Notes under the pieces: generated by a model | Databases searched by the model: none | What the model was told of the DNA's origin: nothing | The model's input: the letters and a program-made list of their open reading frames with translations, nothing else | Virus record (IMG/VR): IMGVR_UViG_3300045988_122072 | Location: 32,001 to 96,000 of that record | Length of the DNA stretch: 64,000 bases | DNA from: a virus | Strand: one strand, 5' to 3' | Shown: one piece after another, positions 7,759 through 64,000 of the stretch | Numbering within the stretch: position 1 is the stretch's first letter | How the letters are laid out: each line of letters starts with the position of its first letter | Program-made: the position numbers and the translations under genes

Positions 7759-8635
7759 TCATTGCAACCCTCCTATTTTTCATCATCGCATTTCTCTGAT
7801 ATTCTAACTGCTTTTGATGTTGGCATTCTTCACATCTACAACTTCTCTTATTAGAAGATGCTACAATAAAATGAGTTCCACATTCAATACATTCAATTTC
7901 TTTAGTACCCATTGGTTCATAATTTTCTCTATGAATACCGCAATATTGCATAGCATTATTTCTTACACGGAACCATCTTCCGCACGCCTTACATCTTTTA
8001 TATCCACCATTTTTATAATTCAAAAATGCATAAGCAAGTTCCAAATAATCATATTCATCAAGCGTAAGAATAACTTCGCCCTCATCATGATCTACAAAAG
8101 CGGCAGTCAAGGCATTATAACCTATGCTAAAATTCTGTTTGAGCAATCCTTCCTTATATGCAAACCCAAAATATAAATCTCTATCTTTAGCTGGAATAAC
8201 AACCCTTGCAAACTTAAATATTTCAGAAGTCTTTGCATAGAATGTATCATTATCTCTTTGACTTTCGGCATTTTGATATTTTGCTAATGCTAAAATGACA
8301 AATGCAATTTTTTCTTTCCTTATATCATTTAAAGACATAATTTTGTCCATTTCTCTTTTTGTAATATTAATAGTATTTACATCTTTAATTTTATATTTAT
8401 AAGCCTTATTAATATCCTTATTAATGGTATTTATATACCCCTGATACATAAAACCATTATAATTTTGAGCCATAAAGTCAACAATTTTCCAAAATACATC
8501 ATTCTTATCTGCAGGATTTAATTGTGTATAATAAATTGCTGCATTCCAAATTGCTTGAGTTATACTAACTCCATCAATATTTTTATCCTCTATAATGCTA
8601 TAAATCCTACTTTTTTCATTAAAATTAAATCTCAT
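7736..8635 (-). CDS. hypothetical protein with C-terminal zinc-ribbon module
   Basis: 299 aa with GGAGGTGA SD. The C-terminal CKACG...CIECG...CRCEECQHQKQLEYQR resembles the C-terminus of the neighbouring GIY-YIG protein. Confidence 0.75.
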   Translation of the reverse strand: MRFNFNEKSRIYSIIEDKNIDGVSITQAIWNAAIYYTQLNPADKNDVFWKIVDFMAQNYNGFMYQGYINTINKDINKAYKYKIKDVNTINITKREMDKIMSLNDIRKEKIAFVILALAKYQNAESQRDNDTFYAKTSEIFKFARVVIPAKDRDLYFGFAYKEGLLKQNFSIGYNALTAAFVDHDEGEVILTLDEYDYLELAYAFLNYKNGGYKRCKACGRWFRVRNNAMQYCGIHRENYEPMGTKEIECIECGTHFIVASSNKRSCRCEECQHQKQLEYQRNAMMKNRRVAMSDNGNLQ

Positions 8636-11471
8636 CTATAATTTCACCTCCAATTCTAATAGTTTTATTAGAAAATTTCGTACCACAACAACAAAAATCT
8701 GCATTTTCACTCTTTTCTGGATATGTAAGAGTATTATCATGTTTTTCTAACATATTTTTAATAATTTGAGTACCGCAAACATCCCAAACTATAGTTTTAC
8801 TCATTTTCCCAGTATAACAAATATCTAATAAAATATCACAAAGAGACTCTTCATTCGGGCAAATAGACGTCATATCTTCTATGAGAGTTTCGAGAAGTCT
8901 GTCTTTGTCCTCTAATAATATCTTTCTTTCTTCTTCATTATTAATTTTTCTACTATTTAAAGCCTTCAAATTCATTAAATAATGCTCGCACAAACCTTTT
9001 ATTTCTGCATAAGAGCTTCTTCTTACATTATTTTTTGATTTATAAATACTATAGTCAAATTCTAATTCTTCACAAGAAAAATTTCCGTCAAATTTCTCTT
9101 CTATTTTTCTACAAATACGATTCATAGTAGAAGGAGACATATCAATAGGGCATTTTGCAGAACAATATTGAACAAATTTAGCCTCATCTTCACTTAAATT
9201 ATCCATTTTTAGCATATCTTCAAACGAAATACCATATAGACCAATTGATTTTGAATTAACTTCTTCAATAAATTTTTGATAATTAATTCTTTCTGTATCG
9301 TAGTTATACATAAAGAAATACGGCTTTTTATTTGCACAAATTGTTTGATTAAATGCTTTTTTCTCTTGAATTTCCTCAGAATCATCAGGCTTTATGATAT
9401 TTGCGCCATATTGATACCATTCTTTTGGCATCGGAATAGGTAAAATCCCCTTTGCTTTATCAATTTCTCTTTGTTGCAGTGCTTGACCACATTGAGTTCT
9501 ATATCTTAATGTTTCATATTCTTTACTATTTGGGGCATAATTTGCCATCAAACTTGTCATTTGTGTAATTTTATTTGTTATGGAACCAATTTTACTGCCA
9601 AATCCAGCCTTATTTGAAGCAATTATATCCTCTTCTTTAACTACTTTTTTAGGAGCCTTTGTCTGTATACAATTCAATGCAGGAAGATTAGTTTGTCTTC
9701 TTATCAATGACACATTATTTGTTGTAAATAATAAATCACCATCAAAATCAAAGCCATTTAATGCAGCGGGCATTGTGTCCCACCCATTTACAACTATACA
9801 AGTATCAATATATTGAAACCAATCAAGAGCTTTTTTATCTTTACATATATTTTGAGCAACTATAGAATGAGCATTACTCATTGGAGCTCTAAAACAAAGA
9901 ACTCTATCTACGCCTTCATCATACCAATATTTACTATAAATTTCACCAGCCTTTAAAATTCCATGTGGTTCCAGCCCAAACATACTTTCACAAAGGGCAT
10001 ATAAATCCCCAGAAAGGATTTGGAAGTTCCCATGCAGATCCAAAACGCCAATTTTAGCATCTTTTATTCGTCTATTTATCATTTTTTTGATTTTTGAGCG
10101 AATATAAGGATCATTTATAGCAATTTTATCAATCATAAGCGCTTTTGCAATATTTTCAGCAAAGATTACATTTTTCTCATTTAATCCCTTGCCACATAAA
10201 TATGCAACGCTTTTTCTTGGATCTAACTCCATAATATCTTTAATTTCATTAACTGTTAGTGCAATAAGCTCATCTATATCATCATCTGTAAGGTCTAAAG
10301 ACTGTATAAATTGATAATTTAATTGCCTTATATCATCATTTTCTTCTTCAGATGTCTTTGTAACTCTTAAAGTATAATGATTCGCAATACATTTTTCATA
10401 ATAATCTTCCCATGAAGAATAACTGCCGCACAACTTAAGCTGGCTTTCAGTTAATATTAAATCAGCATCGCGTATATCTCTTTCTTTCCCCCAATAATCT
10501 TTAATTAAATACTTTTCTGGATGTTCTGCAGACGCACCAATAATTTCTTCTGCGAATCTAATAAAATCAAAAGTAAGAGCCATGCCTTTTGTAAAAGCAC
10601 AACGCATATTACATCCGCTCATTGTATGTTCTGAGTTTCCATTTAGCTCTCCATTCCACCTTTTAGACAAGTGGGGGAGCATCATTGAACATCCATCCGA
10701 CATATTATTTTCAAAATCTTCATTATGTTTTTCTGTTACTTTTGGTTCTACCGTTGGATCACTGTCATCTATTTCAATAAAATTCGTCTTAAAATGAACA
10801 ACACAGTCTTTTACAACAATAATGCCTCCGGGAATATTACTTTCACGAGATCTAGGCCAGCTAACTGGGATTGATGCACTAGCGGCAAGTGATTCATAGG
10901 CTCCATACTTAGCAGGAGAGAGCTTTACATCTGTATTTCTGCCATTTGCTATGCGTCTCTTTAACTCATCATGAATATTTACACTTTGCCCATTGTACTC
11001 AACGAATCTATCTGCGGCATATACAACACTGGATGTTTTTACTCCATTGGTAGTGCAAATCAATCTTTTATATGCAATTCCATTTACTTTAAACCCTTTA
11101 TTTGCTCTATCATAATCAGACTTTTTATCAAAAACCACACATAAATAGTCCTTTTTGAACTGTAAATCATATAATTCTGTATATTTTTCTGAAACTTTTT
11201 TCTTATTGTCATCACTATTTGGCTGTTTTTTAATTTCTTTTATGTCTTTTTTAATTTGTTTTGCTCTTGAATCATAATCCTCGGTTCCATTTAGCTCATT
11301 AATCCAAGTTAAAATTTGCGAATCAGCCAAAGAAACAACAACCCCAGGAATTTTTCTTGCGTCTGACAATGGTAATTCTAATTCCCAATTATTTTGCTTG
11401 AGCAGACTTGAATTAATTTTATATATATACTGTTGTGTTTTTTGCTGTTTTGCCAAACGCACCGCCTCCAA
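8625..11471 (-). CDS. YonO/cellular-RdRP-like single-subunit RNA polymerase (candidate)
   Basis: 948-aa ORF. RVLCFRAPMSNAHSIV is followed about 45 aa later by NGFDFDGDLLF, the DxDGD metal-binding signature of two-barrel RNA polymerases. GAT TTT GAT GGT GAT lies at 9735-9749 (minus). There is no ATG at the 5' end: candidates are TTG 11471, GTG 11462 and TTG 11456 (the last with GGAGG 7 nt upstream). Confidence 0.6.
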   Translation of the reverse strand: MEAVRLAKQQKTQQYIYKINSSLLKQNNWELELPLSDARKIPGVVVSLADSQILTWINELNGTEDYDSRAKQIKKDIKEIKKQPNSDDNKKKVSEKYTELYDLQFKKDYLCVVFDKKSDYDRANKGFKVNGIAYKRLICTTNGVKTSSVVYAADRFVEYNGQSVNIHDELKRRIANGRNTDVKLSPAKYGAYESLAASASIPVSWPRSRESNIPGGIIVVKDCVVHFKTNFIEIDDSDPTVEPKVTEKHNEDFENNMSDGCSMMLPHLSKRWNGELNGNSEHTMSGCNMRCAFTKGMALTFDFIRFAEEIIGASAEHPEKYLIKDYWGKERDIRDADLILTESQLKLCGSYSSWEDYYEKCIANHYTLRVTKTSEEENDDIRQLNYQFIQSLDLTDDDIDELIALTVNEIKDIMELDPRKSVAYLCGKGLNEKNVIFAENIAKALMIDKIAINDPYIRSKIKKMINRRIKDAKIGVLDLHGNFQILSGDLYALCESMFGLEPHGILKAGEIYSKYWYDEGVDRVLCFRAPMSNAHSIVAQNICKDKKALDWFQYIDTCIVVNGWDTMPAALNGFDFDGDLLFTTNNVSLIRRQTNLPALNCIQTKAPKKVVKEEDIIASNKAGFGSKIGSITNKITQMTSLMANYAPNSKEYETLRYRTQCGQALQQREIDKAKGILPIPMPKEWYQYGANIIKPDDSEEIQEKKAFNQTICANKKPYFFMYNYDTERINYQKFIEEVNSKSIGLYGISFEDMLKMDNLSEDEAKFVQYCSAKCPIDMSPSTMNRICRKIEEKFDGNFSCEELEFDYSIYKSKNNVRRSSYAEIKGLCEHYLMNLKALNSRKINNEEERKILLEDKDRLLETLIEDMTSICPNEESLCDILLDICYTGKMSKTIVWDVCGTQIIKNMLEKHDNTLTYPEKSENADFCCCGTKFSNKTIRIGGEIIDEI

Positions 11472-35463: not shown

Positions 35464-36444
35464 ATGAACGGAAGACTTGAAGCTGAATTAAATAAACAAA
35501 AGTTAATTAAAGACAAACTTAAATATTTGCCTAAAGTTTTCGAAGAATTTTATTATTACATGGATGAAGATGATAGATCATATAATACTATTGAGCATTA
35601 TATTGATTATAATGTAGAATTTATGAACTATATTACAAACGGAAATAAAGATGAATATTATTATAAAAATGTAAATTCAACGCACATCAAACAATTTATT
35701 AGTTCACAACGTACTAAAGAAATTAATGGAGAGCTGGTTAGAATCGGTGATAGCATTTTGGCTACAAAATTTTCAGCTATTAAAAAATTCTTTTCATTTT
35801 TAATTGATTCAAATTATATTGATGAAAATCCGGTAGAAGGAGTTCGAAGACCAAAAGTTAAAACAGATCATACGGTTACATTTCTTGAAGAAAACGAAAT
35901 CAATAAGTTGTTTTCAAATATTAAAACAATGGCAAATGAAAGATTATTAAATAGAGATTTGTGTATGTTCTCTTTATTTATTTCTACTGGTCTTAGAAAA
36001 TCTGCGTTAGTGCAGATCAATGTGGAAGATGTTAATTTTAAGACAAATACAATTAAGGTAATTGAAAAAGGAAGAAAGGAAAGGTTGATTAGTTTTGGCG
36101 GAAATATGAGACAGCTTTTATTAAACTGGATTCAAGATAGAAGAGATTATTTTAAAGTAGAAGAAAGTGGGCCATTATTTGTTTCTCAATGGAATAATAG
36201 AATGTCTACAAAAAATGTAGAAATGTTGTTAGCGAAGTATCTAGATGGCGTGAGCGATAAACATATCACAGTTCATAAACTTAGGGCGACCGCTGCAACC
36301 CAAATGGCAGCACATGATGTCCCGGTTCAGGTTATAAAGGAAATGTTGAATCATGAAAATGTTTCTACAACAATGAGATATGTTGCTGCAATTGACAGCC
36401 AGAAGCAAGAAGCAGTCAATATTCTTGATAGCATCGTGAAATAA
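35464..36444 (+). CDS. tyrosine recombinase/integrase (XerC/D-like)
   Basis: 326 aa with GLRKSAL, HKLRATAATQM and LNHENVSTTMRYV (R-H-R-Y catalytic pattern). Confidence 0.85.
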   Translation: MNGRLEAELNKQKLIKDKLKYLPKVFEEFYYYMDEDDRSYNTIEHYIDYNVEFMNYITNGNKDEYYYKNVNSTHIKQFISSQRTKEINGELVRIGDSILATKFSAIKKFFSFLIDSNYIDENPVEGVRRPKVKTDHTVTFLEENEINKLFSNIKTMANERLLNRDLCMFSLFISTGLRKSALVQINVEDVNFKTNTIKVIEKGRKERLISFGGNMRQLLLNWIQDRRDYFKVEESGPLFVSQWNNRMSTKNVEMLLAKYLDGVSDKHITVHKLRATAATQMAAHDVPVQVIKEMLNHENVSTTMRYVAAIDSQKQEAVNILDSIVK

Positions 36445-36501: not shown

Positions 36502-37389
36502 ATGTTTGACAAAGAACAAAAAGAGGCATTTATAAAGGAATATTTAAAAAGTAAGGTAGTTGCAAAGACTAGCCTTTATGCGGTTTTCAGAAAGACGGAA
36601 CCATTTGAAGAGAAATTAAATAAAGATGTATCACAATTTACAAGAGAAGAAATATTGGATATGTTTGCGCAATTCAGAGCGAAATCTGTAAATTCATTAT
36701 TAAATTACGCCATCATATTGAAGCATTATTCACGTTTAATGCGTGGAGAAAATGAATATGAATCAATTACAAAGGCAGATGTTGTGGATCTCATTGATAA
36801 AAGCGGAAATATATTATTAAGTAGAGAAGAACTTGATGATATTGAAGCGCAACTTTTAAACTGGTCAGATAAAGCCATAGTTGAACTACTTTGGGAGGGT
36901 ATATCTGGCAAAAATATGATTGATATATATTCGGTCTCAGAAGAATGTATACAAGGTGATATGCTGTGCGTTAATGGAAAAGAATTTTATATGACTAACA
37001 GATTAAAAGAATTGTTACTAAAGGCTTTTGCCGAAACAGAGATCATGAGCTATGGCAATACAATGCGAATAGTTGAAGTAGAAGGCAAAGGAAGACTTTA
37101 CAAGGAAAGAGCAAATACTAGAGGCGTCGATTCTGACGATCAAAAATTCCGTTATTTCTATCGTCGTATTCAAATATTCAGAGAGTATTTAGATATACCA
37201 GGACTAACCATGAAGAATCTTAGCGCATCTGGAATGTTTTACTATATTCAACTTGGTATAAAGGAAACAGGTCTAGCGCTTAGAGAGTTTTTAAAAACTT
37301 CAAAAGGAAAAGAATTAGCAATTCAATATGGATTTGCAGAAGACTATTATGTTGATACGATAGCACAGAAATACGAGCAATATATTTAA
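36502..37389 (+). CDS. hypothetical protein (295 aa)
   Basis: Lies downstream of the promoter and adjacent to the recombinase. No motif recognised. Confidence 0.75.
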   Translation: MFDKEQKEAFIKEYLKSKVVAKTSLYAVFRKTEPFEEKLNKDVSQFTREEILDMFAQFRAKSVNSLLNYAIILKHYSRLMRGENEYESITKADVVDLIDKSGNILLSREELDDIEAQLLNWSDKAIVELLWEGISGKNMIDIYSVSEECIQGDMLCVNGKEFYMTNRLKELLLKAFAETEIMSYGNTMRIVEVEGKGRLYKERANTRGVDSDDQKFRYFYRRIQIFREYLDIPGLTMKNLSASGMFYYIQLGIKETGLALREFLKTSKGKELAIQYGFAEDYYVDTIAQKYEQYI

Positions 37390-59797: not shown

Positions 59798-60661
59798 ATG
59801 GGTGGCGGTTCTTGGACGAGAGATAACTTTACTAGCTATGTAACTACTGCAAAGTGTGCAATGGTAGACGATTTTGGTGTTGTCAGAGGACTAAATAGTG
59901 TTCAGGATAATTTTAAATCGAGATGCCTAGTGGCGGAGCTTAATCCTAAAAATGTTGTTCGCGAGTGTGTAGATTCCGCAGAGCATCCCAATACAAAGCC
60001 TGTTATTCTAGCACTCGATGTCACTGGTAGTATGGGCAGTGCAGCCATGGAAGTTGCAAAGCAGATCAATGTTGTTATGACAAGCCTATATGAGAAGATG
60101 ACAGATGTTGAATTTATGATTATGGGCATTGGAGATCTTGCTTATGATAACGCTCCAATTCAGGCATCTCAGTTTGAATCAGATATCAGAATCGCAGAAC
60201 AGCTTGATAAAATTTATTTTGAGGGCGGTGGCGGCGGCAATTCTTATGAGTCCTATACTGCCGCATGGTATTTTGGGCTTAATCATACCAAACTAGATTG
60301 TTGGAATCGTGGGCAGAAGGGTGTTATTATTACAATGGGTGATGAACCTTTGAATCCGTATCTGCCTAAGAATACTCTATCTGTTGCGACTGGTGATAAC
60401 CTACAGGATGATGTTGAGACAGCTCAGCTTTACAAGGATGCTTCTGAGAAGTTTGATATCTACCATTTGTATGTAAAGCATGGGTATGGTCGTTATGAAG
60501 AAGCCGTTAAGGATACTTTCGGCAAGTTTCTTGATACGAATCATCTCAAGACTACATCTGTAAATAAGATTGCAGATGACATTATTGAGATTGTAACAAA
60601 TGCATTTACTGGAAGCGATACAAGTACATTTGTAAATACTAGCGAAGGAATTTCTTGGTAA
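59798..60661 (+). CDS. von Willebrand factor A (vWA) domain protein
   Basis: MIDAS-type ILALDVTGSMGS, followed by alternating beta/alpha-like segments (IITMGDEP). Confidence 0.7.
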   Translation: MGGGSWTRDNFTSYVTTAKCAMVDDFGVVRGLNSVQDNFKSRCLVAELNPKNVVRECVDSAEHPNTKPVILALDVTGSMGSAAMEVAKQINVVMTSLYEKMTDVEFMIMGIGDLAYDNAPIQASQFESDIRIAEQLDKIYFEGGGGGNSYESYTAAWYFGLNHTKLDCWNRGQKGVIITMGDEPLNPYLPKNTLSVATGDNLQDDVETAQLYKDASEKFDIYHLYVKHGYGRYEEAVKDTFGKFLDTNHLKTTSVNKIADDIIEIVTNAFTGSDTSTFVNTSEGISW

Positions 60662-60675
60662 GAGGAGATAAACAC

Positions 60676-61824
60676 ATGTCTAATGTTAAAGTAGTAATCG
60701 GTAGCAATTTTGGGGACGAAGGAAAAGGATTGATGACTGATTATTTCTGCGCAGAAGCAAAAAAGCGGAATGAATCCTGTATTGTTGTTTTATCTAATGG
60801 CGGAGCGCAGAGAGGGCACACTGTGGTTACGCCAGATGGCATTAGACATGTGTTTCATCATTTTGGTTCTGGCACTTTTGCAGAAGCCCCTACATATTTT
60901 AGTGAGCAATATATTTTGAATCCTATGACTTTCAGAAAAGAGCATGAAGAATTGGATTCTTTAGGCTTTAAGCCACTCGTTTGTGCTCATTGGAATTGCA
61001 GATGGTCAACGCCGTATGACGTGATCGTAAATCAAATTCTTGAAGATAGTCGTGGAGAAAATCGACATGGATCTTGCGGCATGGGAATCTGGGAAACTAT
61101 CTGCAGATATACAAGTACTGGAGCACCATCATTGCGGCACTTTAATATGATGAGTGAAGAATATAAAGTTCAATTTCTAAAAAATATTAGAGATAAATAT
61201 ATGCCGCAGAGATTAGCGTCTGCGAATCCAGATGTAGTAAAACAGTGGGAAGAAATTCTATATTCTGATAATCTAATTTATAATTTTATTGCGGACATTC
61301 AGTTCATGTGTTCGCATATGGTTTTTGATTATGGACGCATATTGAGACGATATGACAATGTTGTATTTGAAAATGGGCAAGGTCTGCTACTAGATCAGAA
61401 CCAGACAAGATACGGAGACAATACAACTCCTAGCAATACTGGAATTCAGAACCCGCATGTGATTATTGAAAAGTATTTATTTGGCGCTAACGTTGAAGTG
61501 TGTTATGTTACAAGAACATACCTAACAAGACATGGTGCTGGGGCTTTTGATGGTGAATGTGATAAATCTGAAATCAATGGTTCTATGAAAGATAAGACCA
61601 ATGTGCCAAATCCGTATCAGGGCAGTATTCGATATGGTAAGCTGGATGTTAATGAACTTGTAAACAGAATCAAAAAGGATATTGGGGAGCATTCTTATAA
61701 TGTATCTTTGGCAGTGACACATTTGAACGAGTTTGAAAACAAAGAGTTATTGGCACTAAAGGAACTAAATGTTAAGTATTTGTCTTATAATGAGACTAGA
61801 AAATTAACAGAAAAAATTTCCTGA
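60676..61824 (+). CDS. adenylosuccinate synthetase (PurA)/PurZ-family enzyme, divergent
   Basis: 382 aa. GSNFGDEGKGLMTDY (PurA P-loop GDEGKGK), GGAQRGHT (GGHNAGHT), FENGQGLLLD (FEGAQGTLLD) and TRHGAGAF (TRVGAGPF). The TKLD guanine box is replaced by THLN. Confidence 0.75.
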   Translation: MSNVKVVIGSNFGDEGKGLMTDYFCAEAKKRNESCIVVLSNGGAQRGHTVVTPDGIRHVFHHFGSGTFAEAPTYFSEQYILNPMTFRKEHEELDSLGFKPLVCAHWNCRWSTPYDVIVNQILEDSRGENRHGSCGMGIWETICRYTSTGAPSLRHFNMMSEEYKVQFLKNIRDKYMPQRLASANPDVVKQWEEILYSDNLIYNFIADIQFMCSHMVFDYGRILRRYDNVVFENGQGLLLDQNQTRYGDNTTPSNTGIQNPHVIIEKYLFGANVEVCYVTRTYLTRHGAGAFDGECDKSEINGSMKDKTNVPNPYQGSIRYGKLDVNELVNRIKKDIGEHSYNVSLAVTHLNEFENKELLALKELNVKYLSYNETRKLTEKIS

Positions 61825-61910: not shown

Positions 61911-62240
61911 ATGATTAAGTATTATCACCTGAGCGATGGCACGACGATTGGCGAGCTGCGGGGTACAAAGTATGACTGTATTAACCGGATTGCAAAGGCA
62001 ATGGGTATGACAAAGAGCCTGTGCTTCGATCCTAGTAAGTATCTTATGAATGATGTCTTCAAGGCTGCGTCTAAGCCCTATGGCGGCGACGAGTACGACA
62101 AGGAATATGGCGAACAGGAAGTAAAGCGCAAGGTCATGCGGAAGTATTATAAGCAGCTTGATAGACTGTCTTCTGCGTTCGTAGAGGATCTCAATAAGGC
62201 GATGTTCGAAGCATCTTGGCGGCTTACAAAAAATTCTTAA
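61911..62240 (+). CDS. hypothetical protein (109 aa)
   Basis: AAAGGAG SD. Confidence 0.7.
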   Translation: MIKYYHLSDGTTIGELRGTKYDCINRIAKAMGMTKSLCFDPSKYLMNDVFKAASKPYGGDEYDKEYGEQEVKRKVMRKYYKQLDRLSSAFVEDLNKAMFEASWRLTKNS

Positions 62241-62247
62241 AAACCTC

Positions 62248-62275
62248 TTGACAAATAAAAAATTTATGATATAAT
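62248..62275 (+). promoter_or_regulatory. sigma-A type promoter (AGACAG subclass) driving the structured-RNA array
   Basis: ctcTTGACAAATaaaaaatttaTGaTATAATacAGAtAGT, with the leader box at 62295. No SD or CDS follows for about 540 nt. Confidence 0.7.
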
Positions 62276-62340
62276 ACAGATAGTTCAAGACAATACAAAA
62301 TTAAAGTTCCTGAGCACGAACTGAAAAGGCTCAACTATAT

Positions 62341-62464
62341 GCGATGATAGTCAAATGGTTAAGACGGCAGCGATTATTTTGAAGTGTCTAGCTAGACATG
62401 AACAGCAAGTTTGCAAAATTAATGCTCCAAGCTGCAATTGTGGGTTCGATTCCTACTCATCGCA
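62341..62464 (+). tRNA. tRNA-like gene 1 (Trp-like features) with 59-nt segment in place of the 7-nt anticodon loop
   Basis: Acceptor GCGATGA (62341-47) / TCATCGC (62457-63). D arm TA-GTCA..GAC. Anticodon-stem strands GCAGC (62367-71) / GCTGC (62431-35). T arm GTGGG-TTCGATT-CCTAC (62440-56). The last loop nt read CTCCAA. Confidence 0.55.
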
Positions 62465-62472
62465 ATCATATG

Positions 62473-62590
62473 TCTCCTGTAGCTCAGTCGGGTAGAGCGC
62501 TTAATAACGAGACTTGTAAAAGCCTTAAACAGCAAGTTTCTAACTGGTCTGTTAAACCAGAGGTCACAGGTTCGAGCCCTGTCAGGAGAC
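62473..62590 (+). tRNA. tRNA-Asn(GUU)-like gene 2 with 44-nt insertion between D arm and anticodon arm
   Basis: Acceptor TCTCCTG / CAGGAGA. D arm GCTC-AGTCGGGTA-GAGC. Anticodon arm CTGGT-CTGTTAA-ACCAG (62544-60). Variable AGGTC. T arm ACAGG-TTCGAGC-CCTGT. The insertion at 62500-62543 forms its own 8-bp hairpin. Confidence 0.6.
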
Positions 62591-62596
62591 TTTAAA

Positions 62597-62651
62597 AAGG
62601 CACTAGCAGCAACTTTAAACAATATGCTGGATATTATATTGATGGTGCCTT
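62597..62651 (+). ncRNA. minihelix unit 3 (7-bp closing stem plus CAGCAA box)
   Basis: AAGGCAC (62597-603) / GTGCCTT (62645-51). The box TAGCAGCAACTTT follows the stem directly. Inner stem CAGCA/TGCTG. Confidence 0.4.
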
Positions 62652-62661
62652 GCCTTACATA

Positions 62662-62729
62662 GAGACGCTTACAGCAATTTAAAAAAGATGAAAATGATAT
62701 TTTTACTAATGATTTTATTTTGGCGTCTC
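62662..62729 (+). ncRNA. minihelix unit 4
   Basis: GAGACGC (62662-68) / GCGTCTC (62723-29). The box TTACAGCAATTT follows the stem directly. Confidence 0.4.
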
Positions 62730-62744
62730 GTTGAATAAACTCCA

Positions 62745-62798
62745 AAGACACTAACAGCAAATTTTTAATGTTGGAGATTGTACATAAGAATGTGTCTT
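62745..62798 (+). ncRNA. minihelix unit 5
   Basis: AAGACAC (62745-51) / GTGTCTT (62792-98). The box TAACAGCAAATTT follows the stem directly. Confidence 0.4.
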
Positions 62799-62835
62799 GG
62801 GATTTAGAAATAAATCAAAAATGGAGGAAAGAAAA

Positions 62836-64000
62836 ATGTCTTTTATGAATGCAGTAAAGAATACTCTGAACGAGGATTTCAACTATTCGGTGACTGAGAA
62901 TGGTGCTCTTGGGTATCGTACTTCTGGCAAAGAACTGACTGACCTAAACTTTGCCGTTGCTTCTATGCGCGGTATGAACGAGAAGACCATCTATGATAAG
63001 TTCACGAAGGCTTATTTCGAAGACAAGATGATGGCTTTACGTTGGTTATTTTTCGCAAGAGATGTTCGTGGCGGTCTTGGCGAGAGACGTTTGTTCAGAA
63101 CGGTTCTTAAAAATATGGTAAAGGACGACCCCAATACTGTTAAACGTCTTGCCTGTCTGGTGAGCGAGTATGGCCGTTATGATGACCTGTGGTGTCTGTT
63201 TGGAACGGATGTGGATGGTGTTGTTTTCGATATCATTAAGAAGCAGCTTTCTGATGACATCGCAAATATGGCAGAGAATAAACCCGTATCTCTTCTTGCT
63301 AAGTGGCTCCCTTCCGTAAATGCTTCTTCTACAAGAACTAAGATGAATGCAAGATATATTTGCAAGAATCTTAGTATGACTGAGCGTGAGTATCGTAAGA
63401 CACTTTCTTCTCTTCGTTCTTACATTGATATTGTAGAGAGCAAGATGTCTGCAAAGAAGTGGGAAGACATTAAGTATGAAACGGTTCCTTCTCGTGCAAA
63501 TCTCATTTATAACAGAGCTTTCCTTCGTAATGATGAGGAGCGTCGCAGAGAGTATCTGAGTAAGCTCGAAAATGGTGAAGCTAAGATTAATGCGGGAACT
63601 TTGTTTCCTCACGACATTGTGCATAAGTATTCTAGCACAACTGGATGGGGCTGCCGCGTCAACGAGTACGATGCAACTCTTGAATCTCTTTGGAAGGCTT
63701 TGCCTGACACAGTAAATGGGTGTGGAAACACCATTGTAGTCGCAGACAGTTCTGGCTCTATGTGTTGCAATATTGGTGGAAATACTCATATTGCAGCACT
63801 TGAAGTTGCGAATGCACTTGCAATTTACTTTGCAGAACATTCTTCTGGTGACTTTAAGGATAAGTACATTACTTTCTCTAGCAGACCTCAATTGGTTGAT
63901 TTTAGTCAGTGCAATTCTCTAAGAGATAAGCTTCGTGTTGCATATAGTCATAGTGAGTGTTCAAATACGAACATTGAAAAGGTGTTTGATTTGATTCTTA
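62836..64000 (+). CDS. DUF2828-type protein (helical N-domain plus C-terminal vWA/MIDAS), 3' end outside window
   Basis: Not in the ORF track because there is no stop before the window end. GGAGG SD. TENGALGYRTSG, LAKWLPS, YETVPSRANLIYNRAFLRNDEERRREYL, KINAGTLFPHDIV and MIDAS VVADSSGSM match my memory of the DUF2828/UCP015417 vWA family. Confidence 0.8.
   Translation, partial: MSFMNAVKNTLNEDFNYSVTENGALGYRTSGKELTDLNFAVASMRGMNEKTIYDKFTKAYFEDKMMALRWLFFARDVRGGLGERRLFRTVLKNMVKDDPNTVKRLACLVSEYGRYDDLWCLFGTDVDGVVFDIIKKQLSDDIANMAENKPVSLLAKWLPSVNASSTRTKMNARYICKNLSMTEREYRKTLSSLRSYIDIVESKMSAKKWEDIKYETVPSRANLIYNRAFLRNDEERRREYLSKLENGEAKINAGTLFPHDIVHKYSSTTGWGCRVNEYDATLESLWKALPDTVNGCGNTIVVADSSGSMCCNIGGNTHIAALEVANALAIYFAEHSSGDFKDKYITFSSRPQLVDFSQCNSLRDKLRVAYSHSECSNTNIEKVFDLIL

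What the first reader, a model, noticed from the sequence alone, without database searches (positions are those of the whole stretch)
62341..62590. Two tRNA-shaped genes, each interrupted by a 44-59 nt structured insertion at a non-canonical position
Both genes have perfect 7-bp acceptor stems, TA at positions 8-9, D arms and canonical TTCGA T arms. Gene 2 (62473-62590) also has a textbook Asn anticodon arm, CTGGT-CTGTTAA-ACCAG. It nevertheless carries 44 extra nt (62500-62543) between position 26 and the anticodon stem. That insert folds on itself: GAGACTTG (62509-16) pairs with CAAGTTTC (62533-40). In gene 1 (62341-62464) the anticodon-stem strands GCAGC and GCTGC are separated by 59 nt instead of 7. 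The 3' end of that segment reads CTCCAA, like a Trp CCA loop lacking one nt, and the T arm is identical to what I recall for Bacillus tRNA-Trp. The inserts are far too short for group I introns, and neither lies at the 37/38 intron site. Both inserts contain the identical 12-mer AACAGCAAGTTT. Possible interpretations are expanded tRNA mimics (decoys or resistant substitutes for anticodon-nuclease defences), Y-RNA-like scaffolds, or tRNA genes disrupted by a small repeat.
Basis: partly seen in the sequence, partly recalled or inferred. Interest (0 to 1): 0.85.

Follow-up and report, generated by a model that had tools for sequence, protein, structure and literature searches.

The report
tRNA-shaped partner RNAs of Ro-like protein
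The two interrupted "tRNA genes" are real, conserved non-coding RNAs: tRNA bodies carrying a small hairpin-plus-ACAGCAA module that also sits on three neighbouring stem-loop RNAs and that accompanies a Ro60-like gene across very diverse phages and bacteria, so they are most likely a new, circularly permuted kind of Y-RNA-like tRNA mimic.

Summary
Rfam's tRNA model hits 62341-62464 (48.7 bits) and 62473-62590 (42.6 bits). Each carries a 59- or 44-nt insert. Default ARAGORN finds no tRNA in the window.

They are not broken tRNAs. Both inserts hold one module: a short hairpin, two nt, then ACAGCAA. The same module lies on three non-tRNA stem-loops at 62597-62799.

All five RNAs follow a consensus promoter and directly precede a DUF2828 gene (62836 onward). 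The predicted fold of that protein matches only Ro60/TROVE proteins over its full length.

The helix+ACAGCAA module flanks DUF2828 genes in 78 of 80 sampled viral loci, on the gene strand. It also flanks them in all seven cultured phages examined, whose hosts include Mycobacterium, Listeria, Enterococcus, Bacillus, Staphylococcus, E. coli and Campylobacter. In bacterial genomes 17 of 36 such loci also carry RtcB.

Helices covary strongly. The canonical Y-RNA motif GNCGAA is absent.

Elsewhere the module encloses YrlA-like tRNA-like domains. Here the topology is permuted: the ends lie at the acceptor stem.

Verdict: Y-RNA-like tRNA mimics, probably partners of a Ro60-like protein and tied to tRNA/RNA repair. 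This is a new variant of a known kind. RNA-protein binding and function are inferred, not shown.

The parts
62248..62275 (+). Promoter-like site: TTGACA, 16 nt, TG-TATAAT (12 of 12 consensus matches). It lies 65 nt upstream of the first tRNA-shaped RNA.
   Evidence: No terminator-like site was found between here and the Ro60-like ORF. Co-transcription is inferred.
62341..62464 (+). tRNA-shaped RNA 1 (class A). Acceptor stem 62341-47/62457-63. D arm 62350-65. Anticodon stem GCAGC 62367-71 / GCTGC 62431-35. A 59-nt insert (62372-62430) replaces the anticodon loop. T arm 62440-56. Discriminator A at 62464. No encoded CCA.
   Evidence: Rfam tRNA 48.7 bits. Twelve homologues show compensatory changes in 17 of 20 pairs. 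Absence of CCA.
62373..62423 (+). Module in RNA 1. Outer helix ATTATTTTG (62373-81) / CAAAATTAAT (62414-23). Capped hairpin GTGTCT-AGCT-AGACAT (62384-99). Spacer GA. ACAGCAA at 62402-08.
   Evidence: Direct reading. Homologues keep the hairpin with different sequences, for example GTGACTA-GTTG-TAGTCAC and CAAAAC-GTAG-GTTTTG.
62473..62590 (+). tRNA-shaped RNA 2 (class B). Acceptor stem 62473-79/62583-89. D arm 62482-98. A 44-nt insert at 62500-62543. Anticodon-arm-like hairpin CTGGT-CTGTTAA-ACCAG (62544-60). T arm 62566-82. Discriminator C at 62590. No encoded CCA.
   Evidence: Rfam tRNA 42.6 bits. In 13 sequences, 96.4% of cells are paired against 76.4% in shuffles (0/500), and 19 of 26 pairs have changes on both sides.
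62509..62535 (+). Module in RNA 2. Hairpin GAGACTT-GTAA-AAGCCTT (62509-26; GNRA loop; one A-C mismatch). Spacer AA. ACAGCAA at 62529-35.
   Evidence: Hairpin: 6 of 7 pairs have double changes and 87.9% of cells are paired. The loop is GCAA in L002 and GGGA in L012.
62597..62652 (+). Stem-loop RNA E3. AAGGCAC (62597-603), TA, GCAGCAA (62606-12), then GTGCCTT-G (62645-52).
   Evidence: Conserved in relatives.
62662..62730 (+). Stem-loop RNA E4. GAGACGC (62662-68), TT, ACAGCAA (62671-77), then GCGTCTC-G (62723-30).
62745..62799 (+). Stem-loop RNA E5. AAGACAC (62745-51), TA, ACAGCAA (62754-60), then GTGTCTT-G (62792-99). It is the last element, 37 nt before the start codon, and could double as an mRNA leader.
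   Evidence: In 29 sequences the 8-bp helix is 94.4% paired against 75.4% in shuffles (0/500) and 28-55% when slid. All 8 pairs have double changes.
62836..64000 (+). Ro60-like protein gene, with DUF2828 and DUF7788 (vWA-type) domains. The window end cuts it at residue 388. Full length is about 516 aa in P0001, which is 99% identical.
   Evidence: Pfam DUF2828 7.9e-36. PHROG 850 'RNA-binding protein' 1e-141. The AF2 model's top five Foldseek hits are Ro60/TROVE proteins over the full length, E 8e-8 to 1e-5.

Best explanation
The two tRNA-shaped genes are Y-RNA-like non-coding RNAs. They are probably the RNA partners of the Ro60-like DUF2828/vWA protein encoded right after them.

Each is a full tRNA body: acceptor stem with free ends, D arm and T arm. 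The anticodon region carries a grafted recognition module. The module is a short helix followed on its 3' side by two nt and single-stranded ACAGCAA, faced on the other strand by an A-rich ..AAUG segment. Three simple stem-loop RNAs (E3-E5) carry the same module.

Likely sequence of events:
1. The five RNAs and the Ro-like mRNA are made from one promoter (inferred).
2. The tRNA-shaped units are released by RNase P and RNase Z, like tRNAs in an array (inferred).
3. The Ro-like protein binds the helix+ACAGCAA module (inferred from co-occurrence).
4. The tRNA body or anticodon-arm mimic then recruits, or is attacked by, factors that recognise tRNA. Candidates are repair enzymes such as RtcB, modification enzymes, or host anticodon nucleases (speculative).

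Relative to bacterial YrlA the architecture is circularly permuted. In YrlA the protein-binding stem holds the 5'/3' ends and the acceptor stem is closed by a loop. Here the ends are at the acceptor stem and the module is capped by a tetraloop.
For: (1) Shared module. Five copies lie on one strand in 360 nt.

(2) Neighbouring gene. It is DUF2828. Its model matches only Ro60/TROVE structures over the full length: 9kop, 9l5y, 2nvo, 1yvp. Mycobacteriophage annotators call homologues 'Ro-like RNA binding protein'.

(3) Linkage.
- In 80 viral loci (57-92% protein identity), exact ACAGCAA on the gene strand reaches 5.3 per kb in the 500 nt upstream. It is 0.06 per kb inside the gene and 0.13 per kb or less on the other strand.
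- 78 of 80 loci have at least 2 copies.
- It is also present next to the gene in all seven cultured phages examined, from five bacterial phyla of hosts.

(4) Reverse test. A DNA-only search for the RNA pattern returned 120 viral loci. 51 held a DUF2828 gene in the fetched stretch, all on the same strand, 33 within 500 nt. It also returned 120 genome loci, 36 with the gene.

(5) Structure.
- A perfect helix of at least 7 bp adjoins the motif at 58% of 293 sites, against 11% of control positions. There are 134 distinct helix sequences.
- Covariation counts are strong.

(6) Both topologies exist.
- In Enterococcus phage EFGrKN, Bacillus phage FADO, mycobacteriophage Samty, L012 and L247, the module helix holds the ends and encloses a YrlA-like T/acceptor/D domain. 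Rfam YrlA scores 36-48 bits there.
- In the gut-phage clade, 1-3 tRNA hits of 111-139 nt per locus carry the capped module.

(7) Not ordinary tRNAs.
- Encoded CCA is present in 338 of 404 canonical tRNAs of these loci but only 7 of 42 insert-bearing ones.
- Class B keeps U33 and A37-38, but the 'anticodon' varies: GTT, GCT, TTT, TGA.

(8) Repair context.
- RtcB lies in 17 of 36 genome loci, directly downstream in 13.
- L247 reads WYL regulators, 3 RNAs, DUF2828, RtcB. This mirrors the Salmonella rsr-yrlBA-rtcBA operon (PMC7790460, PMC4201824).
Against: - No experiment shows that the protein binds these RNAs, or that stable RNAs of about 120 nt accumulate.
- The protein has no sequence-level match to Pfam TROVE or to any PDB chain. 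The Ro60 link rests on a medium-confidence model (pLDDT 68, pTM 0.60).
- The canonical Ro60-binding motif GNCGAAN0-1G is absent, so the binding mode cannot be transferred from known Y RNAs.
- The last element could act in cis as an mRNA leader.
- About half of the pattern hits in the reverse test had no DUF2828 gene in the fetched stretch. Some are chance matches inside ORFs. Others may be distant members of tRNA arrays.
- No RtcB gene was found among the large window ORFs that were scanned.
Confidence: 0.72

Rival explanations
1. They are working tRNAs whose inserts are a new kind of short intron. The insert would be removed by a protein enzyme that recognises the helix+ACAGCAA module, perhaps with RtcB-type ligation, to yield about 75-nt decoding tRNAs.
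For: - ARAGORN with its intron option calls both genes.
- Gene 2 keeps an Asn-type anticodon arm.
- RtcB, a tRNA-splicing ligase, neighbours the Ro-like gene in 17 of 36 genome loci.
- Other tRNAs with 45-70-nt inserts occur in related tRNA arrays.
Against: - Removing the insert of gene 1 leaves the loop GCUCCAA, which has no U33. Homologues leave no consistent anticodon.
- Class-B 'anticodons' and discriminators vary while the body is conserved.
- The same module sits on RNAs with no tRNA part at all (E3-E5). It also sits at the ends of YrlA-like RNAs, where nothing could be spliced.
- Canonical tRNA-Asn and tRNA-Trp exist in the arrays of related phages.
- Most insert-bearing genes lack the encoded CCA typical of this group's tRNAs.
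- No bulge-helix-bulge motif is visible at the insert borders.
Confidence: 0.08
2. The ACAGCAA stem-loops are cis-acting signals of the operon rather than trans-acting RNP scaffolds. They would be processing or stability sites for the tRNA array, or a leader through which the Ro-like protein or a host factor controls translation of the Ro-like mRNA. On this view the tRNA bodies are merely neighbours.
For: - An element lies within about 100 nt of the start codon in most loci, with conserved spacing to the ribosome-binding site.
- No terminator separates the RNAs from the ORF.
- Elements are scattered through tRNA arrays in some phages.
Against: - There are 2 to 9 copies per locus.
- In Samty and L015 the copies lie downstream of the gene.
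- The module is built into defined positions of three conserved tRNA-like classes, and into YrlA-like RNAs.
- The motif stays invariant across hosts from Actinobacteria to Campylobacter. The DUF2828 gene is the only constant neighbour, which argues against a host factor.
- Autoregulation by the last element is compatible with the main explanation and is not an alternative to it.
Confidence: 0.12
3. They are tRNA pseudogenes inactivated by insertion of a small dispersed repeat (MITE/REP-like), with no function.
For: An identical 12-mer occurs in both inserts, and there are five copies of the motif in 460 nt.
Against: - The inserts are kept in homologues down to 57% protein identity.
- Compensatory changes occur in the acceptor, T, anticodon-like and insert helices.
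- Only the heptamer and the helix geometry are conserved, not a repeat sequence. There are 134 distinct helix strands.
- The motif is at chance level elsewhere in the window.
- There are no target-site duplications or terminal inverted repeats.
Confidence: 0.02
4. The real RNA is a single canonical YrlA spanning 62418-62526. It would comprise the T arm of gene 1, a spacer and the D arm of gene 2.
For: Rfam YrlA hit of 26 bits, E 0.0027 in the 661-nt search.
Against: - The hit is far below the gathering score of 69.
- The segment between the T and D arms cannot form the acceptor-like hairpin. Each half-stem instead has a perfect, covarying 7-bp partner in its own tRNA.
- Chen et al. 2014 name dimeric tRNAs as a false-positive source for this model.
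- GNCGAA is absent.
Confidence: 0.02

Closest known systems
YrlA, the bacterial tRNA-like Y RNA (Rfam RF02553; Chen et al. 2014, PMC4201824), with Rsr/Ro60
   Same: - A non-coding RNA encoded beside, and on the same strand as, a Ro60-type ring+vWA protein.
- It contains a tRNA-like D arm, T arm and acceptor stem.
- A long helix with the presumed protein-binding site occupies the place of the anticodon arm.
- It is accompanied by simpler YrlB-like RNAs.
- It is linked to RtcB repair operons in bacteria.
- M. smegmatis YrlA is even cut by RNase P and receives CCA.
   Different: - The protein is DUF2828, not Pfam TROVE.
- The conserved RNA element is helix+NN+ACAGCAA, not GNCGAAN0-1G.
- In the window the topology is circularly permuted: 5'/3' ends at a 7-bp acceptor stem, module capped by a tetraloop.
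- RNA 2 keeps an anticodon-arm-like hairpin beside the module.
- There are five RNAs per locus.
- The Rfam YrlA model does not reach its gathering score.
Phage Ro60 with Y-RNA-like Yrl1/Yrl2 of Thermus phage phiLo (PMC12135203; PDB 9KOP, 9L5Y)
   Same: - A phage-encoded Ro60-type protein with small structured RNAs encoded just upstream.
- It is the best structural match to the window's protein model (E 8e-8, TM 0.52-0.56).
   Different: - The phiLo RNAs are stem-bulge-stem Y RNAs with the CGAA motif and no tRNA body.
- The phiLo protein is a recognised TROVE protein.
- Sequence identity to the window protein is only 16-17% in the structural alignment.
Canonical phage tRNA genes and tRNA arrays
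   Same: - Cloverleaf body and conserved D- and T-loop nucleotides.
- Location at the head of a large tRNA array in related phages.
- An 8-nt spacer between the two genes.
   Different: - There is no intact anticodon arm in RNA 1.
- A 44-nt branch interrupts the anticodon stem of RNA 2.
- There is no encoded CCA, although 84% of the array's tRNAs have it.
- The 'anticodon' and discriminator vary among homologues.
tRNA genes with group I or archaeal-type introns
   Same: Extra sequence lies in or near the anticodon arm of a tRNA gene.
   Different: - The inserts of 44-59 nt are far too short for group I, and Rfam gives no intron hit.
- There is no bulge-helix-bulge motif.
- The same insert module also occurs on non-tRNA RNAs.

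Membership tests
tRNA (canonical, decoding) | Cloverleaf body: 7-bp acceptor stem, D arm and T arm with conserved nucleotides. Score above the Rfam RF00005 gathering score. | tested here: met
   48.7 and 42.6 bits against a gathering score of 29. Stems covary in homologues.
tRNA (canonical, decoding) | Uninterrupted 5-bp anticodon stem with a 7-nt loop (U33, anticodon, purine 37) at the canonical place. | tested here: not met
   - RNA 1 has 59 nt in place of the loop. The best 'spliced' loop, GCUCCAA, lacks U33.
- RNA 2 has the loop, but a 44-nt branch lies in or before the 5' strand of the stem.
- Default ARAGORN finds neither gene.
tRNA (canonical, decoding) | 3' end like the genome's bona fide tRNAs (encoded CCA in this phage group), and fixed identity elements. 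| tested here: not met
   - Encoded CCA: 338 of 404 canonical tRNAs against 7 of 42 insert-bearing ones, and none in the window genes.
- Anticodon triplet and discriminator vary within class B.
tRNA (canonical, decoding) | Aminoacylation and use on the ribosome. | not testable with these tools
   Needs acid-gel Northern blots or charged-tRNA sequencing from infected cells.
YrlA / bacterial Y RNA (RF02553) | Reaches the Rfam gathering score (69 bits). | tested here: not met
   26 bits, on a stretch made of the T arm of gene 1 plus the D arm of gene 2. This is a dimeric-tRNA artefact of the kind described in PMC4201824.
YrlA / bacterial Y RNA (RF02553) | Encoded next to, and on the same strand as, a Ro60 orthologue. 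| tested here: met
   The ORF starts 37 nt after E5, on the same strand. Ro60-like by fold only. Pfam TROVE is not hit.
YrlA / bacterial Y RNA (RF02553) | tRNA-like domain with D and T arms and an acceptor-like stem. | tested here: met
YrlA / bacterial Y RNA (RF02553) | GNCGAAN0-1G (GGUCCGA-like) Ro60-binding motif near the 5' end. | tested here: not met
   No GNCGAA in 62281-62835. In 80 loci, 13 GNCGAAN0-1G against 235 ACAGCAA in the 600 nt upstream.
YrlA / bacterial Y RNA (RF02553) | 5' and 3' ends pair to form the protein-binding stem, and the acceptor-like stem is closed by a loop. | tested here: not met
   In the window the ends are at the acceptor stem and the module is capped by a tetraloop. 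The YrlA-type topology with the same module does occur in other phages.
YrlA / bacterial Y RNA (RF02553) | Bound by the Ro60 protein in vivo. | not testable with these tools
   Needs RIP, CLIP or EMSA.
Ro60/TROVE protein family (for the neighbouring gene) | HEAT-repeat ring followed by a vWA domain with a MIDAS motif. | tested here: met
   Foldseek top five hits are Ro60/TROVE over about 520 aligned columns, E 8e-8 to 1e-5, TM 0.39-0.56. DxSxS is present as D-S-S-G-S in VVADSSGSM. The model has only medium confidence.
Ro60/TROVE protein family (for the neighbouring gene) | Sequence match to Pfam TROVE (PF05731) or to solved Ro60 chains. | tested here: not met
   No hit even at E up to 10. The family is DUF2828 + DUF7788.
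tRNA gene with group I intron | Intron of about 200 nt or more with a P1-P9 core, in the anticodon loop. | tested here: not met
   The inserts are 44 and 59 nt. No Rfam intron family is hit at gathering threshold or at E up to 10.
tRNA gene with archaeal-type (BHB) intron | Bulge(3)-helix(4 bp)-bulge(3) motif at the exon-intron borders. | tested here: not met
   By inspection. In RNA 1, 1 nt (5' side) and 7 nt (3' side) lie between the anticodon stem and a 9-bp helix. In RNA 2 the insert borders are unpaired. No splicing endonuclease was searched for.

The most novel reading that the evidence does not exclude
A very widespread ribonucleoprotein has gone unrecognised. It occurs in Felix-O1-like, Listeria P100-like, Staphylococcus Twort-like, Enterococcus, Bacillus, Campylobacter and Mycobacterium phages, in large gut phages, and in RtcB operons of Clostridia.

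In it, a Ro60-like DUF2828 protein binds a helix+ACAGCAA module. Evolution has grafted that module onto whole tRNA bodies, onto permuted tRNA-like domains and onto bare anticodon-arm mimics.

The tRNA-shaped versions in this window would act as protein-held baits or sensors for tRNA-targeting nucleases, handing damaged tRNA to repair. This would give phages a dedicated counter-measure to anticodon-nuclease defences.
Probability: 0.3. Interest if true: 0.82.

Novelty: new variant of a known kind. Interest (0 to 1): 0.66.

Why it matters
Ro60 and Y RNAs are conserved from bacteria to humans, yet the purpose of the tRNA-like domain of bacterial Y RNAs is still unknown.

This locus shows several new things:
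- A second, sequence-unrelated branch of Ro60-like proteins (DUF2828) has its own conserved RNA recognition element.
- That element has been combined with tRNA parts in at least three topologies, including complete tRNAs with free acceptor ends.
- The repeated, independent coupling of a Ro-type protein to tRNA shapes, next to tRNA arrays in phages and to RtcB in bacteria, points to tRNA damage, surveillance or repair as the core business of these particles.

The module also occurs in easily grown and therapeutically used phage groups, so the hypothesis can be tested directly. In addition, the short ACAGCAA signature offers a simple way to annotate hundreds of overlooked non-coding RNAs in phage genomes.

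Tried and rejected
- **Default ARAGORN:** no tRNA found. With the intron option it calls tRNA-Gly(tcc) and a forced tRNA-Thr(ggt). I do not accept either assignment, because there is no U33 and the stems are implausible.
- **Rfam at E up to 10 on 62200-62860:** only tRNA, a weak YrlA artefact and noise. No family matches E3-E5.
- **blastn of the RNA region against GenBank phages:** only a 40-nt tRNA-like match.
- **Sequence searches of the protein** against PDB chains, Pfam TROVE, PADLOC and NCBIfam: nothing.
tested and not conserved.
- **Inner helix CAGCA/TGCTG in E3** from RNAfold: lost in relatives.
- **Ancestry test:** the cores of the two RNAs are only 60-70% identical to any canonical tRNA of related phages, and not specifically closest to Trp.
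- **Anticodon-arm mimics downstream of the motif:** enrichment is moderate and confounded by T loops. 162 of 307 sites against 59 of 388 controls, with about half of the former being T loops. I treat this as an observation, not a proof.
- **RtcB:** not found in the window or in viral loci, except Listeria phage LP-124.
- **Literature:** no paper was found linking DUF2828 to an RNA partner. Burroughs and Aravind 2016 on RNA repair systems could not be read.
- **Supplement tables of Chen et al. 2014:** not held. I therefore could not check which phage 'Ro' proteins they used.
Full report

Yes.
- The Rfam tRNA covariance model matches 62341-62464 (48.7 bits) and 62473-62590 (42.6 bits), both well above the gathering score of 29. 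It has to skip 59 nt and 57 nt around the anticodon region.
- Direct reading confirms the perfect 7-bp acceptor stems, TA at positions 8-9, the D arms, the GGTTCGA T arms, GCAGC...59 nt...GCTGC in gene 1 and CTGGT-CTGTTAA-ACCAG in gene 2. It also confirms the shared 12-mer AACAGCAAGTTT at 62401-62412 and 62528-62539.
- ARAGORN in default mode finds no tRNA anywhere in the 64-kb window.
- With its intron option ARAGORN calls both genes, but as 'tRNA-Gly(tcc)' with a loop GCUCCAA lacking U33 and as a forced 'tRNA-Thr(ggt)'.

**2.

- The heptamer ACAGCAA (once GCAGCAA) occurs five times on the + strand between 62402 and 62760. Over the whole window it is at chance level.
- The three extra copies lie in plain stem-loops: E3 at 62597-62652, E4 at 62662-62730 and E5 at 62745-62799.
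- In every case the heptamer follows, after two nucleotides, one strand of a 6-8-bp helix: AGGCAC, AGACGC, AGACAC, AGACAT, AAGCCTT.
  - In E3-E5 the partner strand lies 30-50 nt downstream.
  - In the two tRNA-shaped RNAs the partner lies just upstream and the helix is capped by a tetraloop: GTGTCT-AGCT-AGACAT and GAGACTT-GTAA-AAGCCTT.
  - It is therefore the same local module in two circularly permuted connections.
- A perfect sigma-70-type promoter (TTGACA, 16 nt, TG-TATAAT at 62248-62275) precedes the array. No terminator separates the array from the next ORF.

**3. The neighbouring gene.**

- The ORF starting at 62836 is cut by the window end. It carries Pfam DUF2828 (7.9e-36) and DUF7788 and matches PHROG 850 'RNA-binding protein' (1e-141).
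- It has more than 8000 homologues. P0001 is 99% identical and 516 aa long.
- An AlphaFold2 model of P0001 has pLDDT 68 and pTM 0.60. Searched against the PDB, its five best hits, all over about 520 aligned columns, are:
  - the TROVE domain and Ro60 of Thermus phage phiLo (9kop, 9l5y; two chains of 9l5y are among the five);
  - Deinococcus Rsr (2nvo);
  - Xenopus Ro60 with RNAs (1yvp).
  - E-values run from 8e-8 to 1e-5. Everything below matches only the vWA domain.
- There is no sequence-level match to TROVE or to any PDB chain.
- The MIDAS motif is present as D-S-S-G-S.
- tblastn finds the family in 710 GenBank phage records. Mycobacteriophage annotators already call it 'Ro-like RNA binding protein'.

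**4. Linkage of the RNA module to the gene.**

- In 18 close relatives the array is conserved upstream of the gene.
- In 80 further viral loci (57-92% protein identity), the density of exact ACAGCAA on the gene strand is as follows:

| Region | ACAGCAA per kb, gene strand |
|---|---|
| 0-500 nt upstream | 5.3 |
| 500-1000 nt upstream | 2.8 |
| 1000-1500 nt upstream | 1.9 |
| 1500-2000 nt upstream | 0.9 |
| Inside the gene | 0.06 |

  - On the opposite strand the density is 0-0.13 per kb throughout.
  - 78 of 80 loci have at least two copies.
- More distant relatives (53-54% identity) carry 3-5 copies just downstream instead.
- All seven cultured phages examined have helix+ACAGCAA elements beside the gene. 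They are mycobacteriophage Samty, Enterococcus EFGrKN, Bacillus FADO, Listeria LP-124, Escherichia JH2, a Staphylococcus Twort-like phage and Campylobacter F370.
  - The helix sequences follow the genome's composition, for example GTGGACNNNN...NNNNGTCCAG in Samty.
  - The heptamer is unchanged.
- Reverse test. A DNA-only search for AAGACNNNNACAGCAAN{18,48}GTCTTG gave these results:
  - Viral contigs: 120 loci (capped). 51 had a DUF2828 homologue (mostly 33-98% identity) in the fetched stretch, always on the same strand, 33 within 500 nt.
  - Bacterial and archaeal genomes: 120 loci (capped). 36 had the gene, 34 within 500 nt.
- The motif stays constant while the hosts range from Actinobacteria to Campylobacter. 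The DUF2828 gene is the only constant neighbour. The encoded protein is therefore the most economical candidate for what reads the motif. This step is an inference.

**5. Are the RNAs under selection for structure?**

- A perfect helix of at least 7 bp adjoins the motif at 58% of 293 non-redundant sites, against 11% of 388 control positions. There are 134 different helix strands.
- For the last element before the gene, an unfitted MAFFT alignment of 29 sequences gives an 8-bp helix. It is 94.4% paired, against 75.4% in shuffles (0/500) and 28-55% when slid. All eight pairs show changes on both sides.
- For RNA 2 and 12 homologues ('class B'), 96.4% of cells are paired against 76.4% in shuffles (0/500). 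19 of 26 pairs have double changes. These include 7 of 7 in the acceptor stem, 6 of 7 in the insert hairpin, 3 of 3 in the anticodon-like hairpin and 3 of 5 in the T stem.
- For RNA 1 and 12 homologues ('class A'), 17 of 20 pairs in the acceptor, D, anticodon and T stems show compensatory changes.
It is not conserved: 62% paired, 152 of 500 shuffles as good.

**6. How general are tRNA-shaped carriers?**

- In 20 diverse loci the Rfam tRNA model finds one to three hits of 111-139 nt upstream of the gene. Nearly all contain [AAUG]-hairpin-NN-ACAGCAA.
- They fall into three recurrent classes:
  - Class A, as RNA 1. The insert replaces the anticodon loop.
  - Class B, as RNA 2. The insert lies in the 5' strand of the anticodon stem after pair 28:42, and a 7-nt loop with invariant U33 and A37-38 is kept. 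The triplet varies: GTT, GCT, TTT, TGA.
  - Class C, absent from the window.
- Canonical tRNAs in these loci mostly encode CCA (338 of 404). The insert-bearing ones mostly do not (7 of 42), and the window's two do not.
- Related phages carry normal tRNA-Asn and tRNA-Trp genes in the large tRNA array that follows the Ro-like gene.
- In other phages the same module holds the RNA ends and encloses a T arm, an acceptor-like hairpin and a D arm. That is the YrlA topology.
  - Examples are EFGrKN units at L100 2440-2760 (Rfam YrlA 45.9 and 35.7 bits, with the model's terminal stem not matched), Samty, FADO, JH2, L012 and L247.
  - No insert-bearing tRNA hit was seen in the seven cultured phages.
  - The acceptor-ended topology therefore seems typical of this clade of large uncultured phages.
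- Many 'last elements' carry an inner 4-5-bp hairpin with a loop such as CTTTTAA, CTGTTAA, CTGATAA or CTGCTAA. These are anticodon-arm mimics. The enrichment is moderate.

**7. Comparison with known systems.**

- Chen et al. 2014 (PMC4201824) showed that bacterial Ro60 genes are flanked by YrlA RNAs.
  - The 5'/3' stem of YrlA carries GNCGAAN0-1G, and its centre mimics tRNA.
  - M. smegmatis YrlA is cut by RNase P and receives CCA.
  - They also warn that tandem tRNAs score as false YrlA hits. This explains the 26-bit YrlA hit at 62418-62526.
- GNCGAA is absent from the window array and rare in the 80 loci: 13 against 235 ACAGCAA.
- The phiLo phage Ro60 binds two upstream Y-like RNAs with a CGAA motif (PMC12135203).
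- The window RNAs therefore work like Y RNAs by every contextual criterion. They fail the defining tests of YrlA membership: gathering score, motif and topology. They also fail the tests of canonical tRNAs.

**8. Functional context.**

- In the genome collection, 17 of 36 DUF2828 loci also contain RtcB. It lies directly downstream on the same strand (27-154-nt gap) in 13 of them.
- L247, a Clostridia MAG, reads: two WYL-domain regulators; three ACAGCAA RNAs, one with a T arm and one with an anticodon-arm mimic; DUF2828; RtcB.
- This parallels the Salmonella rtcR-rsr-yrlBA-rtcBA RNA-repair operon, which is induced by damaged tRNAs (PMC7790460).
- Listeria phage LP-124 has RtcB 1.3 kb downstream.
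- Cluster L1 mycobacteriophage LeBron combines the Ro-like protein with an RNA ligase and a polynucleotide kinase (PMC13148394).
- In the window's relatives the gene heads a tRNA array.
- Together this supports a role in tRNA or RNA damage, surveillance or repair. Whether the tRNA-shaped RNAs are tethers, sensors or decoys is open.

**9. Verdict.**

- The finding is real and is not a pair of pseudogenes.
- Best reading (confidence about 0.7): Y-RNA-like tRNA mimics that carry the recognition module of a Ro60-like DUF2828 protein.
- Shown: the anatomy, conservation, covariation, genomic linkage and fold similarity.
- Inferred: co-transcription, RNase P/Z processing and protein binding.
- Speculative: the downstream effector.
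- Novelty: a new variant of a known kind, with a new motif, a new protein branch and a permuted topology. I found no paper describing it, but the literature search was limited.

Noticed in passing
window 60655-61824 (+): Adenylosuccinate-synthetase-like gene. Pfam Adenylsucc_synt 1.4e-29. Best PHROG is 1211 (PurZ-type, 4.6e-65). A weak NCBIfam PurZ hit is far below its cut-off. The phage may make 2-aminoadenine (Z) DNA, but this is not established.
   Followed up: partly
window 8625-11471 (-): A 948-aa protein matches Pfam RdRP (PF05183, 7.5e-15), the two-barrel RNA polymerase fold seen in crAss-like virion RNA polymerases. This is unusual for a phage protein.
   Followed up: no
L004 8568-8687; L011 6610-6739; L011 8821-8964: Further tRNA-model hits of 120-144 nt sit in the tRNA arrays of related phages. 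They carry 45-70-nt inserts in the anticodon loop but no ACAGCAA. One example is a tRNA-Gln-like gene with CTT[48 nt]GAC. This may be a second kind of short tRNA insert.
   Followed up: no
L005 6164-6240; L006 6173-6249: ARAGORN reports a tRNA with anticodon CTA (amber suppressor, labelled 'Pyl') in the tRNA arrays of two relatives. This hints at TAG recoding in this phage group.
   Followed up: no
L102 1474-2025 (Listeria phage LP-124): A ROOL-RNA-like match (87.4 bits, below the gathering score of 99.1) lies about 1 kb upstream of the DUF2828 gene, between tRNA genes. An RtcB-like ligase lies 1.3 kb downstream.
   Followed up: no
L247 100-5047 (Clostridia MAG) and 16 other genome loci: A cellular operon reads WYL regulators, ACAGCAA RNAs, DUF2828, RtcB. 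It is an apparent DUF2828 counterpart of the rsr-yrlBA-rtcBA RNA-repair operon.
   Followed up: partly
L100 2390-2810 (Enterococcus phage EFGrKN): Each of the three ACAGCAA units is preceded by a second repeated hairpin: GGTTTTGNCATAG..GTTCC-(loop)-GGAAC-ATAAAGAA. Its role is unknown. It may be a processing signal.
   Followed up: no
L276 (contig USJD01000001.1, 147 kb): A relative whose Ro-like protein is 92% identical to P0001 sits on a 147-kb contig binned as 'uncultured Prevotella sp.'. It is probably the phage genome itself. The window's TTGACA/TATAAT promoters look more like those of a Firmicute host.
   Followed up: no
window 59798-60661 (+): A 287-aa protein of unknown function (phrog_2971) has a MIDAS-like DVTGSMG motif. 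This is a second vWA-type protein, two genes upstream of the RNA array.
   Followed up: no
window 62740-62745 with 62773-62778: CTCCAA just 5' of the E5 helix can pair with TTGGAG inside the E5 loop, giving a pseudoknot-like arrangement. CTCCA/TGGAG is kept in close relatives.
   Followed up: partly
window 35464-36444 and 36502-37389 (+): Two adjacent tyrosine-recombinase genes (Phage_integrase and MrpR-type) lie in a phage that otherwise looks like a large lytic type with its own Pol III alpha and a DnaB-like helicase.
   Followed up: no
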